Shown: piece by piece, positions 48,401 through 51,400 of the stretch
How the letters are laid out: the number at the start of each line of letters is the position of its first letter
How positions within the stretch are numbered: the first letter of the stretch is position 1
Assembly (NCBI RefSeq): GCF_001447785.1
Contig: NW_015166451.1
Span: forward strand, 279,030 to 343,029
DNA from: Gekko japonicus
Taxonomy: Eukaryota
Length of the DNA: 64,000 nucleotides
Direction of reading: 5' to 3'
Made by a program: the position numbers

Positions 48401-51400
48401 GTCTAATCATCTAGGGAGCTAGCACAGTATAGTTTGGAAGAAGAGGCAAGAACATAAATTGGTTTTGAGGAGGAGGAGGACAACAGGTGTTATTACAGAT
48501 GTAAGACCCTGAGTCAGTGAAGTAGTCTTGTACTGAGTTAAACTTAAAGCAGCCTACTCTGACTGGTGGGGAGTGAAAACTCCTTACTGGGATCACTTAT
48601 GAGCTGGTTGTGGCTTAACAGCACATACAAACTTACAGTGACTGGTTACAGCTCTCTAGGGTCCCAGGAAGATCTACTCCAGCCTTCCTTAAAATTTTTT
48701 TTGATTTTGTACAGTTTTAAGAAAAATAATTGAAGAGTCATAAAAGGGCATGGTATTTTTGCAGTGACCTTCCTAGGAAGATCAGTTTTAGCCACTATCA
48801 TTTCTGCCTTTCCTGTAGCAGATCTATTCTTGCAGGGTTTTCTTTAAATTATGTTTGTTACCCTTTCTGGCTCAACCCAGAAATTGCTCTAATTTTAGGT
48901 GTATTGTTTTTAAAGTTGTGCTTTTATATTGCTTATACGCATCTCTTTTGTAGAAAAAACTGATGCACTGGAAAAGGAAGAGATAATGGGTGATGAGCAA
49001 GCTGGCATCAGAAAGGGTCACTCTTGTGTGGACCACTGCTTTATGCTGGCCTCACTGATAAGCAAATATGTGTTACACAAAGTCTTGTGTGTTTGACATA
49101 GGTGTGAATATGTCAGGGTTACATAGTCACCCAGCCACACAGTTCCAGCTTTGAGAAATACAATGTACCTAGTGCCCCCCCTTCCTTCCTAATTCATTGA
49201 AGCGACAGCAGTGGGAAGTTTCCAAAACAGGCATAGTTATTAGTTGTCCGCCTATACTAGTTGAAGGGTTGTCTTGAGTTAGACCTAGGGAAAGGGTATG
49301 AGGCTGATTTCATTCAATGCTAGTTGCAGGGGGGAAAAACACAGCACAACAGTTATTGTTGGAACTTCTATTTCAACTCTAACAGAGCAAATTCCTTGAG
49401 TGCATAAAAATACAGAAGACTAGCTGGCACTAGGAATGGGAGCTGACTTGCATTGCCACGTTTCCCGAAATCAAGGTGAAGCATAGGAAACCTGTGAAGA
49501 TAGACACCATTCTGGGATCTGTGATGCCGTTGCTTCCTATCTGCTTTGCTTTCTTTACCAGTCCTTTTAGAGCAAGTCCCCCCCCAACATAGCGTTTCTA
49601 ATGTAAGTGTCCTTTCCTACTCTTCACAGTCTGTCACCAGAGTCCACACTTGCCGTACAACCTCCGCAAACTCCCTCATTGCCTCAGCATGAAGGTTGGG
49701 GTCTTGTGCCAAGTGCTTAAAAAGATTGACAGGTACAGCAGTGCGAAGAGCCTTGGGCATAGGTATCTGAATGGGCAGGGAGACATTTCCAATCAGGAAG
49801 TGCTTAAGACCTTTCTCCTGCAGGGCAGTATGCATGAATAAGAGGATGTCCTGCAGCCTTTGCACAATATCTTCACGGGCCCAGTCTGAGAGGGGCCGAA
49901 AGAGCAGGAGATGCATCAGACAAGTCTTGTAATGGTAGTCAGTGAGCACAGGGTTCTTCCCATCTGATGGGTTGGACTCTTTGAGGTAGAGGATGATCTG
50001 TAAACATTTCAGGTGGCAGCTCTCCTCTGGGACTTGCTGGTTTACCCTTTTGAAAAAGAGCAGCTCCTGGATTGCAAAGGTCCTCTGCCAAACTGTACCA
50101 GCTGAACGGTCCATCTCAGCACCCTGGGTGGCCAGGAAAACTAAGCTGTCTCCTTGCTGGACTCCAAGTATGATGTCAACAGAGATTGTCTTTCCAGATC
50201 TAAATGCCAGGTTCAGCTTGCATGCAGTGTTGGAAGGCTTGGGCAGGAGATCAAGATTGTACTTATAACTTATATTTTTCCAGGCCTTCCTCACAAGACT
50301 CTGGAACCAGTGGATGGTTTTATCCACATCTAAGTGGGAGCTGGTACACAAAACATCCATGAGGAAGGCACCTTGCTTGTCTTCACTCAGCGTTTGCTCA
50401 GGATGATGAAGGAAGCATACCACATCTCCTCTTTCTCTCTTGCACACACACTCCATCTCCACCAAGATGTGTCCATGTTTGCTTGAGGTGCCTTCAGAAG
50501 CACTTGTTTCCAAATGGAAATAGTGTCCCTTGGGTGGCACTACCGGCACCAGTACACTGAATGCCTTGGTCTTTTCTTCTTCTTCTTCTTGTATGTGCCA
50601 TCCTTCAAAGGCACTGTCCACCCCAATACAGTTCACCAACAGAGGAAGGGTGTTCTGATAGGGAAGGTAATTCCGGCAGGCCTCCAGCAAGTCATTCACA
50701 AAGGACTCCACAAAATCGCACATATGGGTTAGGTCACTGGTGTCCACATCTGTGAGGCAGTCACAGAAAGCCTCTAGTACTTTTTGCTTGTTGCCACATG
50801 TTTCACTTTCCATGTCAGTATCCTCCTCCTCCTCTCTGTTGGTACTACTGAAGGTATCAGTGTTAGAATCATCACTGGGTTCCTCTTCCAAGGAGTATAT
50901 GTAGCACATCAAGAACAGAAGGCTCACATAGTGCCACACATCCCAGGTTTCATCATCCATAGGTTGATCAGTTGTAATCCAGTCTTTTGGAGTCTTCAGC
51001 GGCTCCAAGGTCCAGCCTTTCTGGTCAAACTCTGTCCGCAAGAGCTCCATTTCCTGTTTCATTCGCTCCTCATGGTCCTGGAGCCGGTTCAGCGTGGTCA
51101 AGTCTGTATGGTCACTGACGATCAAAGGGTGGTGGACCAGAGTTAGCACAGACAGGAAGATGAAAGGACCCCAAAACATCCTGACTTGCACCGGTTTCTA
51201 GAGAAAAACACTAAAGGAAACTATTCAAGCTGAAGTCCAAGGAAGACAATAGGCAAGGCTGTACTGCTGAAAGAAATTAAAATTCTTCACTCAGGATCAT
51301 GCCATCTGTATGAATAATATGGAACCTTATTTGATTAATTTTGTTCTAAGTCTGATAGTTGCAAGAAGGCATTCCACAGGGAGCCGAAACCCCACTCCCA

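What the first reader, a model, noticed from the sequence alone, without database searches (positions are those of the whole stretch)
49617..51179. Intact ITPRIPL1-like (cGAS/Mab-21 fold) membrane-protein gene nested in MRPL13 intron 4
Seen: an uninterrupted intronless 520-aa ORF on the same strand as its host, inside the 17-kb intron 36180-53537. Known: I recall no such gene in the human COL14A1-MRPL13-MTBP locus. ITPRIPL1-like genes are expanded and dispersed in sauropsids, and human ITPRIPL1 has been reported as an immunomodulatory CD3 ligand. Inference: a lineage-specific retro- or transposed copy kept intact by selection. Same-strand nesting means its polyadenylation would compete with full-length MRPL13.
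Basis: partly seen in the sequence, partly recalled or inferred. Interest (0 to 1): 0.75.

Follow-up and report, generated by a model that had tools for sequence, protein, structure and literature searches.

The report
Extra ITPRIPL1 gene inside gecko MRPL13
A gecko genome carries an extra, still-working-looking copy of the immune-regulator gene ITPRIPL1 sitting inside an intron of the housekeeping gene MRPL13; it is a lineage-specific gene duplicate, interesting but of a familiar kind.

Summary
An uninterrupted 520-codon ORF lies at 49617-51179 on the minus strand, inside MRPL13 intron 4 (36180-53537) and on the host's strand.

It is a full-length ITPRIPL1-family protein. Mab-21_C passes Pfam's cut-off, and the predicted fold matches MiD51 and cGAS. 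The cGAS acidic dyad is absent.

The window comes from a gekkonid gecko. Gekko kuhli has two copies: one fused by annotation to MRPL13, so it sits in the same place, and one on another chromosome-scale contig. The window ORF groups with the MRPL13-linked copy (100/99), inside Gekkonidae. In 4 of 4 other squamates with data, ITPRIPL1 and MRPL13 lie on contigs of different length. So this is a gekkonid-lineage paralogue, not the ancestral locus.

Selection appears to keep it. Its changes avoid conserved columns (3 of 77 on invariant columns, 15.2 expected), and 5 of 5 indels are in frame. It evolves about 1.5-2 times faster than its sister copy.

A retrocopy origin is not supported: there is a canonical splice acceptor 18 nt upstream of the ATG and no poly(A) remnant. 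Expression and CD3-epsilon binding are untested.

The parts
49617..51179 (-). Coding sequence of the nested ITPRIPL1 paralogue (520 codons plus TAG stop)
   Evidence: ORF listing. Pfam Mab-21_C 37.8 bits against a cut-off of 24.1. 100% query coverage by gecko proteins named ITPRIPL1.
51180..51197 (-). 18-nt open leader (KPVQVR) between the predicted splice acceptor and the ATG
   Evidence: At least 15 of 18 nt are compatible with the KQAEVR leader of the G. kuhli copy-B model. Mammalian 'X1' models carry a comparable in-frame extension.
51198..51211 (-). Polypyrimidine tract ending in AG: predicted 3' splice site of the coding exon. Its TAG is also the in-frame stop upstream of the leader.
   Evidence: Sequence read directly. 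Use of the site is inferred; no RNA data were available.
36180..53537 (-). MRPL13 intron 4, the host intron (17,358 bases)
   Evidence: GT at 53537-53536 and AG before 36179. Flanking exons placed by tblastn with public MRPL13 proteins.
53538..53598 (-). MRPL13 exon 4 (61 nt, ends in phase 0)
36090..36179 (-). MRPL13 exon 5 (starts in phase 0)
   Evidence: tblastn 93% to Heteronotia MRPL13. Pfam Ribosomal_L13 33.1 bits.
59118..59241 (-). MRPL13 exon 2
   Evidence: Pfam Ribosomal_L13 35.5 bits on the enclosing ORF.
58821..58914 (-). MRPL13 exon 3
60253..60279 (-). Coding part of MRPL13 exon 1 (MSSYSKAAQ, ends in phase 0), in the G+C-rich block
   Evidence: ORF 60166..60564. It matches the start of the public MRPL13 proteins. 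GC is 0.54 at 60-62 kb.

Best explanation
The ORF is a working, lineage-specific paralogue of ITPRIPL1 (also called CD3L1). It arose by duplication within gekkonid geckos and landed in intron 4 of MRPL13, on the host's strand. It encodes the family's usual architecture. From the N terminus: a hydrophobic signal sequence (about aa 1-23), a short helical outer segment (about 24-78), a weak membrane span (about 79-97), an acidic disordered linker (98-135), and a cytoplasmic Mab-21/cGAS-fold domain that lacks the catalytic acidic dyad, so it is a scaffold and not an enzyme. Its coding exon has a canonical 3' splice site 18 nt upstream of the ATG. It is therefore most likely transcribed as a spliced mRNA whose 5' exon lies either in intron 4 or in MRPL13 itself, and it must end at its own polyadenylation site inside the host intron. 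By analogy with mammalian ITPRIPL1, it would act as a cell-surface inhibitory ligand for CD3-epsilon, with expression in testis. Shown here: the ORF, its family, fold, nesting, paralogy and sequence constraint. Inferred: splicing, expression, membrane topology and ligand function. The confidence given is for 'selectively maintained gekkonid-lineage paralogue nested in MRPL13 intron 4'. The ligand function by analogy I would put at about 0.3.
For: ORF and position. Family: Mab-21_C passes Pfam's cut-off. 169 relatives were found and the best 120 listed; the named ones are nearly all called ITPRIPL1, and identity falls with phylogenetic distance: geckos 73-86%, other squamates 52-70%, turtles 45-49%, mammals about 36-42%. 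Fold: AlphaFold2 mean pLDDT 73.1, pTM 0.68. Foldseek top hits are MiD51 (4nxu, E 6.3e-14, target TM 0.73) and cGAS (4ley, E 8.7e-14). The profile search of PDB sequences gives cGAS at 1.6e-13. Paralogy: G. kuhli has P0002, which carries Ribosomal_L13 plus Mab-21_C on a 129.8-Mb contig. Its MRPL13 part and even its intron read-through map onto the window. G. kuhli also has P0003 on an 85.0-Mb contig. In the careful tree of 36 rows, the window ORF joins P0002 at 100/99, that pair joins P0003 at 97/66, and all sit within a gekkonid clade at 100/99. Position is not ancestral: MRPL13 and ITPRIPL1 contig lengths differ in Heteronotia (138.6 vs 84.2 Mb), Elgaria (117.2 vs 37.7), Rhineura (323.6 vs 46.3) and Hemicordylus (322.4 vs 33.1), which is 4 of 4 squamates with both values. 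Constraint: of 77 polarised changes on the nested-copy lineage over 506 columns, 3 fall on columns invariant in 21 other squamates (15.2 expected, binomial p 5.6e-5) and 18 fall on columns at least 90% conserved (31.5 expected, p 9.5e-4). The window's own branch has 27 changes and none on invariant columns. Five indels within the clade are all in frame. If unconstrained, P(no stop) is about 0.018 for the clade and (1/3)^5 = 0.004 for the indels. Function by analogy: ITPRIPL1 is described as a type I membrane protein and an inhibitory ligand of CD3-epsilon, enriched in spermatids, with T-cell infiltration of the testis in knockout mice (passages of bioRxiv 10.1101/2022.02.25.481189; abstract starts of PMC11357910 and PMC13365830).
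Against: There are no expression data of any kind. The copy evolves faster than its sister. Tajima counts for window vs copy B are 36:25 (p 0.16, outgroup Paroedura) and 38:19 (p 0.012, outgroup Heteronotia). For G. kuhli A vs B they are 41:25 (p 0.049) and 39:20 (p 0.013). This could mean relaxed constraint. The window copy has lost a nearly invariant Leu (RER--GDV), has a 1-aa deletion in the putative membrane span and a 5-aa Glu-run insertion. The membrane span is only weakly hydrophobic (mean 1.12) and poorly modelled. There is no AATAAA within 1.4 kb of the stop; the first ATTAAA is at 48173. There is no CpG island: CpG o/e is at most 0.32 across 48-54 kb. Only two species carry the copy in the data I could see. 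Both G. kuhli records bear NCBI's 'UNVERIFIED_CONTAM' prefix. 'Different chromosome' rests on contig lengths only. In the turtle Mauremys mutica, one ITPRIPL1 and MRPL13 share a 300.0-Mb contig. An older duplication at the base of the sampled gekkonids is not rejected (AU p 0.13).
Confidence: 0.75

Rival explanations
1. It is a decaying duplicate: a copy under no selection that merely has not yet acquired a stop codon.
For: It evolves faster than copy B. It has lost a nearly invariant Leu, and it has three indels on the window branch alone, one of them in the membrane span. There is no nearby canonical poly(A) signal and no CpG island. P(no stop) for the window lineage alone is only 0.09, which is not decisive.
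Against: Changes avoid conserved columns (3 observed vs 15.2 expected on invariant columns, p 5.6e-5). The window tip has 0 of 27 changes on invariant columns. The ORF is intact in two species, and 5 of 5 indels are in frame.
Confidence: 0.12
2. It is a processed retrogene: a reverse-transcribed ITPRIPL1 mRNA inserted into the intron.
For: The coding sequence is uninterrupted and the copy sits on another chromosome from the presumed parent. Old retrocopies do lose their poly(A) tail and target-site duplications.
Against: The family's coding sequence is a single exon in any case, so an uninterrupted ORF says nothing. The sequence immediately upstream of the conserved 18-nt leader is a canonical polypyrimidine-AG acceptor, not 5'-exon sequence. 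The longest A run within 3.6 kb downstream is 8 nt. No direct repeats flank the gene in 46000-54000.
Confidence: 0.25
3. The nested position is the ancestral ITPRIPL1 locus, and the copy elsewhere (copy B and the single genes of other squamates) is the one that moved.
For: In Mauremys mutica, MRPL13 and one ITPRIPL1 share a 300.0-Mb contig. The AU test does not reject a duplication older than the sampled gekkonids (p 0.13).
Against: In 4 of 4 non-Gekko squamates with data, the two genes are on contigs of different length. G. kuhli copy B (85.0 Mb) parallels Heteronotia ITPRIPL1 (84.2 Mb), and G. kuhli MRPL13 (129.8 Mb) parallels Heteronotia MRPL13 (138.6 Mb). The nested pair sits deep inside Gekkonidae in a tree that otherwise follows the species tree. 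Only 1 of the 120 listed relatives carries a Ribosomal_L13 domain.
Confidence: 0.05
4. The ORF is not an independent gene. It is an alternative terminal exon of MRPL13 giving an MRPL13-ITPRIPL1 fusion protein, as in the G. kuhli model P0002.
For: MRPL13 exons 1 and 4 both end in phase 0, and the acceptor-to-ATG leader is 18 nt with no stop. Splicing from either exon would therefore be in frame. A public gene model does fuse the two.
Against: The P0002 model needs about 27 codons of read-through into the intron, which looks like a prediction artefact. Frame compatibility has a one-in-three chance. A signal peptide buried behind 102 residues of a mitoribosomal protein makes little sense. The ORF keeps its own Met, with a purine at -3, and its own hydrophobic N terminus, as in every relative.
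Confidence: 0.08

Closest known systems
ITPRIPL1 / CD3L1 of other amniotes (squamate single-copy genes; mammalian ITPRIPL1)
   Same: Full-length similarity: 81% to Paroedura, 70% to Podarcis, about 40% to mammals, at 98-100% coverage. The order of parts is the same: hydrophobic N terminus, short outer segment, membrane span, acidic linker, Mab-21 domain. It also shares the single coding exon with an open leader before the Met.
   Different: It is a second copy at a new place, inside MRPL13 intron 4 on another chromosome-scale contig. It evolves about 1.5-2 times faster than the sister copy. It carries its own indels, including loss of a nearly invariant Leu. Binding to CD3-epsilon is known only for the mammalian protein and was not tested here.
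Gekko kuhli hypothetical protein K2H54_021890 (P0002)
   Same: It is the orthologue by both tree and position: 88% identity over 512 columns, sister at 100/99, and linked to MRPL13 exons 1-4 in one gene model.
   Different: The public model fuses it to MRPL13 through intron read-through. It has its own two in-frame deletions.
cGAS, cGAS-like receptors, MAB21L1 and MiD51 (Mab-21 nucleotidyltransferase-fold proteins)
   Same: Same fold: Foldseek E 6e-14 to 9e-14, target TM 0.66-0.77. The C-terminal helical domain matches at E 1.6e-13 by profile.
   Different: The cGAS EFDVM acidic dyad aligns with AFSVL, and the GS motif reads DS in the window. Only the third Asp (SVDIIL, D335) is kept. That part of the alignment is weak on its own (4.0 bits). 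The protein also has an N-terminal signal and a membrane segment that cGAS lacks.
Same-strand nested (intronic) genes in vertebrates
   Same: It is a complete gene inside a host intron, in the host's orientation.
   Different: Here the guest is a recent paralogue with a splice acceptor that is frame-compatible with two host exons. Whether host and guest transcripts interact is unknown.

Membership tests
Mab-21 / cGAS-fold superfamily | C-terminal Mab-21 HhH/H2TH-like helical domain (PF20266) | tested here: met
   37.8 bits against a cut-off of 24.1, residues 388-467. Profile against PDB: cGAS 1.6e-13, cGLR1 4.9e-9, MAB21L1 6.8e-8.
Mab-21 / cGAS-fold superfamily | Nucleotidyltransferase core domain (PF03281) and overall bilobed fold | tested here: met
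   By sequence it falls below Pfam's cut-off (18.7 vs 24.1 bits). By fold it is met: Foldseek MiD51 4nxu E 6.3e-14 with target TM 0.73, and cGAS 4ley E 8.7e-14, over about 400 aligned columns. The model has pLDDT 85-95 over most of residues 280-510.
Active cGAS-like nucleotidyltransferases (cGAS, cGLRs) | Catalytic residues: the G[GS] loop, the [DE]x[DE] dyad on the next strand and a third Asp (motif wording recalled) | tested here: not met
   The profile alignment puts AFSVL against cGAS EFDVM and GVDS against TGS; only the third Asp is kept. No acidic residue is invariant or nearly invariant at the dyad positions in the 38-row family alignment. Caveat: this sub-alignment scores only 4.0 bits.
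ITPRIPL1 family | Full-length similarity to proteins named ITPRIPL1 and placement inside their clade | tested here: met
   Nearest named relatives are ITPRIPL1 at 98-100% coverage. The ORF is nested within squamate and gekkonid ITPRIPL1 at 100/99.
ITPRIPL1 family | Type I membrane architecture: signal peptide, outer segment, one membrane span, cytoplasmic Mab-21 domain | tested here: inconclusive
   The N-terminal hydrophobic stretch is clear (mean 1.58). The second stretch, 79-97, is weak (1.12) and one residue shorter than in relatives. It is modelled as helix 82-93 at pLDDT 30-40. No dedicated signal-peptide or membrane predictor was available.
ITPRIPL1 one-to-one orthologue | Same genomic neighbourhood as ITPRIPL1 of related species | tested here: not met
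   It lies in MRPL13 intron 4. In 4 of 4 other squamates with data, ITPRIPL1 is on a contig of different length from MRPL13, and G. kuhli has a second copy elsewhere. It is therefore filed as a paralogue. Only contig lengths could be compared, not gene order.
ITPRIPL1 family | Binding of the outer segment to CD3-epsilon and inhibition of T-cell activation | not testable with these tools
   Reported for the mammalian protein (passages). No gecko CD3-epsilon sequence was in hand and no complex job was run.
Processed retrogene | Poly(A) remnant, target-site duplications, and a 5' end that matches mRNA rather than an intron | tested here: not met
   The longest A run downstream is 8 nt, at 48702. 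No flanking direct repeat was found in 46000-54000. A canonical acceptor abuts the leader. The parent locus DNA could not be compared.
Same-strand nested gene | Whole coding sequence inside one intron of a host gene, in the same orientation | tested here: met

The most novel reading that the evidence does not exclude
The new copy may be wired into its host. MRPL13 exons 1 and 4 both end in phase 0, and the guest's acceptor lies 18 open nucleotides before its ATG. Transcripts from the MRPL13 housekeeping promoter could therefore splice in frame into the guest exon and end there. An exon-1 junction would add only a 15-residue extension, like the 'X1' isoforms of relatives. A gekkonid-specific, fast-evolving paralogue of a T-cell checkpoint ligand would then be expressed at the expense of full-length mitoribosomal MRPL13. 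This would couple the two genes through alternative splicing and polyadenylation, and could give the copy a broader or different expression from the testis-enriched parent.
Probability: 0.12. Interest if true: 0.55.

Novelty: new member of a known kind. Interest (0 to 1): 0.35.

Why it matters
ITPRIPL1 (CD3L1) has recently been described in mammals as an inhibitory ligand of the T-cell receptor component CD3-epsilon and as a guardian of testis immune privilege. A second, selectively maintained copy in one gecko lineage is a natural experiment on how such a ligand diversifies. Its outer and N-terminal parts differ about twice as much between the two orthologues as the Mab-21 domain does (about 0.20 vs 0.09 per site). 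The copy also offers a dated, clean case of a gene landing inside a housekeeping gene on the same strand, with frame-compatible splice sites. In such a case, interference between guest polyadenylation and host expression could be measured. It does not open a new class of system. It is a lineage-specific duplicate of a known gene, and public annotation already names its relatives.

Tried and rejected
(1) Homology upstream of the acceptor. I asked whether the 15 N-terminal residues of the G. kuhli copy-B model could be a translation of sequence homologous to the window's intronic tract. The minimum was 22 differences in 45 nt, no better than controls: 38% of 2,193 intron registers and 48% of 5,000 shuffles did as well. 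This is uninformative, so the DNA-versus-retrocopy question stays open.

(2) Cluster look-up. I did not pursue it by other means. The chromosome comparison therefore rests on four squamates.

(3) Older duplication. An AU test of an older duplication (copy B grouped with Paroedura, Heteronotia and P0006, excluding the nested pair) gave a log-likelihood difference of 9.95 and p 0.13. It is not rejected, so the duplication is dated only to 'within or at the base of the sampled Gekkonidae'.

(4) Relative-rate tests. Results are mixed: two of four pass p < 0.02, one gives 0.049 and one 0.16.

(5) Literature. Searches were badly built: gecko and lizard papers swamped them, and no listed paper held ITPRIPL1. 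They say nothing. The properly built searches found 0 papers with ITPRIPL1 and gecko, 1 unrelated mouse paper with ITPRIPL1 and MRPL13, and 3 papers with ITPRIPL1 and lizard that are unrelated by title and abstract start.

(6) Flanking repeats. A search for repeats that could mark a transposon-borne insertion found only two SINE-like copies upstream and a short 29-nt match that is probably chance.

(7) Other ORFs. Pfam on nine ORFs gave hits on three: an RVT_1 fragment and two MRPL13 exons. The candidate MTBP first exon gave nothing.

(8) dN/dS could not be computed, because no nucleotide sequence of any other gecko was reachable.
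Full report
**Observation**

One search lists a single ATG-to-stop ORF at 49617..51179 on the minus strand, 520 aa, under the standard code. From stop to stop it is 526 codons, 49617..51197. The only other ORF of 80 aa or more here is a 91-aa antisense frame inside it. The window holds three N runs (11423-11606, 33440-33673, 55157-55184). None touches the feature and none was filled. I took nothing here for human.

**Host gene**

I located the MRPL13 exons one at a time by tblastn with two public proteins: the Gekko kuhli record P0002 and Heteronotia binoei uL13m, P0121. 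I then read the junctions.

- All exons are on the minus strand.
- Exon 1 coding part is 60279-60253 (MSSYSKAAQ).
- Exon 2 is 59241-59118, exon 3 is 58914-58821 and exon 4 is 53598-53538.
- Exon 5 starts at 36179, and a further exon lies near 32196-32053.
- Exons 2 and 5 match Pfam Ribosomal_L13 above the cut-off on their own.

**What the protein is**

- Pfam finds Mab-21_C at 37.8 bits (cut-off 24.1). The Mab-21 nucleotidyltransferase domain scores only 18.7 bits, below its cut-off.
- The large protein collection returned 169 relatives, of which the best 120 were listed. The named ones are almost all called ITPRIPL1 and cover 98-100% of the query.
- Identity falls with phylogenetic distance: Gekko kuhli 85-86%, Paroedura 81%, other geckos 73-78%, other lizards and snakes 52-70%, turtles 45-49%, mammals about 36-42%, birds 33-37% for full-length models.
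- The window therefore comes from a gekkonid gecko close to Gekko.
- A profile of 38 family members (A1) hits cGAS at 1.6e-13, and also cGLR1, MAB21L1 and MiD51, in the PDB sequence set.
- An AlphaFold2 model built on that alignment has mean pLDDT 73.1 and pTM 0.68. Confidence is high over most of residues 150-515 and low over 55-128.
- Foldseek against the PDB gives MiD51 and cGAS as top matches (E 6e-14 to 9e-14, target TM up to 0.77).

The cGAS/Mab-21 fold is thus confirmed. The enzyme is not. In the profile alignment, the cGAS dyad EFDVM faces AFSVL and the GS loop faces DS in the window (GS in the family consensus). Only the third Asp, in SVDIIL (D335), is kept. That stretch of the alignment is weak on its own (4.0 bits). 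Even so, no acidic residue is conserved at those positions in the 38-row alignment.

**Architecture**

- The N terminus is hydrophobic (19-residue Kyte-Doolittle mean 1.58), as expected for a signal sequence.
- A helix is modelled at residues 27-53.
- A second hydrophobic stretch at 79-97 is weak (1.12) and modelled at low confidence.
- Residues 98-135 are acidic (14 Asp or Glu of 38) and disordered.

This is the order of parts described for mammalian ITPRIPL1, a type I membrane protein (abstract start of PMC11357910). I had no dedicated predictor for topology, so I rate it inconclusive.

**Orthologue or extra copy?**

Gekko kuhli contributes two proteins.

- P0002 (648 aa) carries both Ribosomal_L13 and Mab-21_C, on a contig of 129,832,911 bases.
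- P0003 (539 aa) lies on a contig of 84,975,888 bases.
- P0002 maps onto the window as MRPL13 exons 2-4, then 21 codons of intron-4 read-through at 76% identity, then the ORF.
- G. kuhli therefore has the same gene in the same place. The fusion itself looks like a prediction artefact.

In a careful maximum-likelihood tree of 36 rows, the window ORF joins P0002 at 100/99. That pair joins P0003 at 97/66 on a very short branch. All three sit in a gekkonid clade at 100/99 with Paroedura, Heteronotia and one unnamed gecko-like protein. The rest of the tree follows the species tree. Rows left out were partial proteins, most birds and mammals, and unnamed mammal-like hits.

An AU test does not reject a somewhat older duplication in which copy B groups with the other gekkonids (p 0.13). 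The event is therefore dated only to within or at the base of the sampled Gekkonidae.

**Which copy moved?**

No eukaryotic genome collection was open, so I compared the contig lengths that the protein tables give for MRPL13 and ITPRIPL1.

| Species | MRPL13 contig (Mb) | ITPRIPL1 contig (Mb) |
|---|---|---|
| Heteronotia | 138.6 | 84.2 |
| Elgaria | 117.2 | 37.7 |
| Rhineura | 323.6 | 46.3 |
| Hemicordylus | 322.4 | 33.1 |

- The lengths differ in all 4 squamates for which both values were listed, each from a cluster seen on one contig.
- G. kuhli copy B (85.0 Mb) parallels Heteronotia ITPRIPL1. G. kuhli MRPL13 with copy A (129.8 Mb) parallels Heteronotia MRPL13.
- Against this reading, in the turtle Mauremys mutica one ITPRIPL1 and MRPL13 share a 300.0-Mb contig. 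That may be chance on so large a chromosome.
- Only 1 of the 120 listed relatives carries a Ribosomal_L13 domain.

I conclude that the copy in MRPL13 is the derived one.

**Is it kept by selection?**

No nucleotide sequence of another gecko was reachable, so dN/dS could not be computed. I used three protein-level tests instead.

- Conserved columns. I polarised changes on the nested-copy lineage over 506 columns and compared them with conservation in 21 other squamates. Of 77 changes, 3 fall on invariant columns (15.2 expected, p 5.6e-5) and 18 on columns at least 90% conserved (31.5 expected, p 9.5e-4). The window's own branch has 27 changes and none on invariant columns.
- Indels. The two orthologues differ by five indels, three on the window branch and two in G. 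kuhli, and all are in frame.
- Stop codons. From the ORF's own codons, 3.6% of random substitutions would create a stop. The 75 amino-acid changes in the clade then imply about 109 substitutions if unconstrained, and a 0.018 chance of no stop. Five of five in-frame indels add (1/3)^5 = 0.004.

The copy is nonetheless faster than its sister. Tajima counts are 36:25 and 41:25 with Paroedura as outgroup (p 0.16 and 0.049), and 38:19 and 39:20 with Heteronotia (p 0.012 and 0.013). The window copy has also lost a nearly invariant Leu and one residue of the membrane span. Between the two orthologues, the N-terminal parts differ about twice as much as the Mab-21 domain: 0.17-0.22 against 0.09 per site. 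Copy B shows the same tendency, so this is not special to the new copy.

**Origin and expression**

Directly upstream of the ATG lie 18 open nucleotides (KPVQVR). They are preceded by a T-rich tract ending in TAG, which is a canonical 3' splice site at 51198-51211.

- The leader is homologous to that of the G. kuhli copy-B model: at least 15 of 18 nt are compatible.
- Mammalian 'X1' models carry a comparable in-frame extension before the same Met.
- The exon boundary is therefore a family feature that the new copy has kept.
- There is no A run longer than 8 nt downstream and no AATAAA within 1.4 kb; the first ATTAAA is at 48173.
- There is no CpG island (CpG o/e at most 0.32) and no flanking direct repeat.

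An uninterrupted ORF is no argument for retroposition here, because the family's coding sequence is a single exon anyway. I favour a DNA-level duplication, but the one test I could devise for homology upstream of the acceptor was uninformative.

MRPL13 exons 1 and 4 both end in phase 0, so splicing from either into 51197 would be in frame. This is an inference about what is possible, with a one-in-three chance of arising by accident. Whether the guest uses its own promoter, and whether its polyadenylation competes with MRPL13, needs RNA data.

**Function**

For the mammalian protein I saw the following.

- Passages of bioRxiv 10.1101/2022.02.25.481189 describe binding to CD3-epsilon, enrichment in spermatids, and T-cell infiltration and abnormal testis in knockout mice.
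- The abstract starts of PMC11357910 and PMC13365830 say the same and add testis immune privilege.

Carrying this function over to a gecko paralogue is analogy only.

**Literature on novelty**

- ITPRIPL1 with gecko: 0 papers.
- ITPRIPL1 with MRPL13: 1 paper, an unrelated mouse uterus study.
- ITPRIPL1 with lizard: 3 papers, unrelated by title and abstract start.
- Searches were badly built and say nothing.

The gene's relatives are already named in public annotation. The duplication and its nesting do not appear in the searched library.

**Verdict**

It is a new member of a known gene family at an unusual address. That is of moderate interest for the evolution of an immune-checkpoint ligand and as a clean case of same-strand nesting.

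Noticed in passing
window 51715-51983 and 52714-52983 (also 51999-52027): Two copies of a SINE-like element about 270 nt long, 81-90% alike, lie 1 kb apart in intron 4 just upstream of the nested gene. A short extra tandem piece sits beside the first copy. The family was not identified.
   Followed up: partly
window 44210-44497 (-): A reverse-transcriptase fragment (Pfam RVT_1, 46.4 bits) lies in intron 4. It is a LINE remnant and is not linked to the nested gene.
   Followed up: yes
window 2-151 (+): The window opens with a Gly-X-Y collagen exon that ends in a stop (…[22 protein letters not shown]…YTF*). Its identity was not tested.
   Followed up: no
window about 60508 (+), ORF 60478-60618: A possible first coding exon (MDRYLLF…) lies about 230 bases from the MRPL13 start codon on the other strand, inside the G+C-rich block (GC 0.54). 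It looks like the head-to-head neighbour, which would be MTBP by recall only. Pfam gave no hit.
   Followed up: partly
window 46000-46367: A local tandem duplication of about 200 bases, 96-97% alike, lies in intron 4.
   Followed up: no
protein P0002 (Gekko kuhli): The public model fuses MRPL13 exons 1-4, about 27 codons of intron read-through and the ITPRIPL1 copy into one 648-aa protein. This is probably an annotation artefact. Both G. kuhli records carry the prefix UNVERIFIED_CONTAM.
   Followed up: partly
bird and turtle hits: Several birds have 2-3 distinct listed ITPRIPL1 proteins on one contig: Alca torda 3, Phoenicopterus ruber 3, and Ciconia boyciana, Pluvialis apricaria and Charadrius vociferus 2 each. 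This suggests local expansions. Mauremys mutica has two copies on different contigs, one of them on the contig that also holds MRPL13.
   Followed up: no
proteins P0024 and P0032 (Pogona vitticeps): Two rather different ITPRIPL1 proteins from one species are sisters at 100/99, with unequal branches (0.11 and 0.31). They are either a second squamate duplication or one poor model.
   Followed up: no
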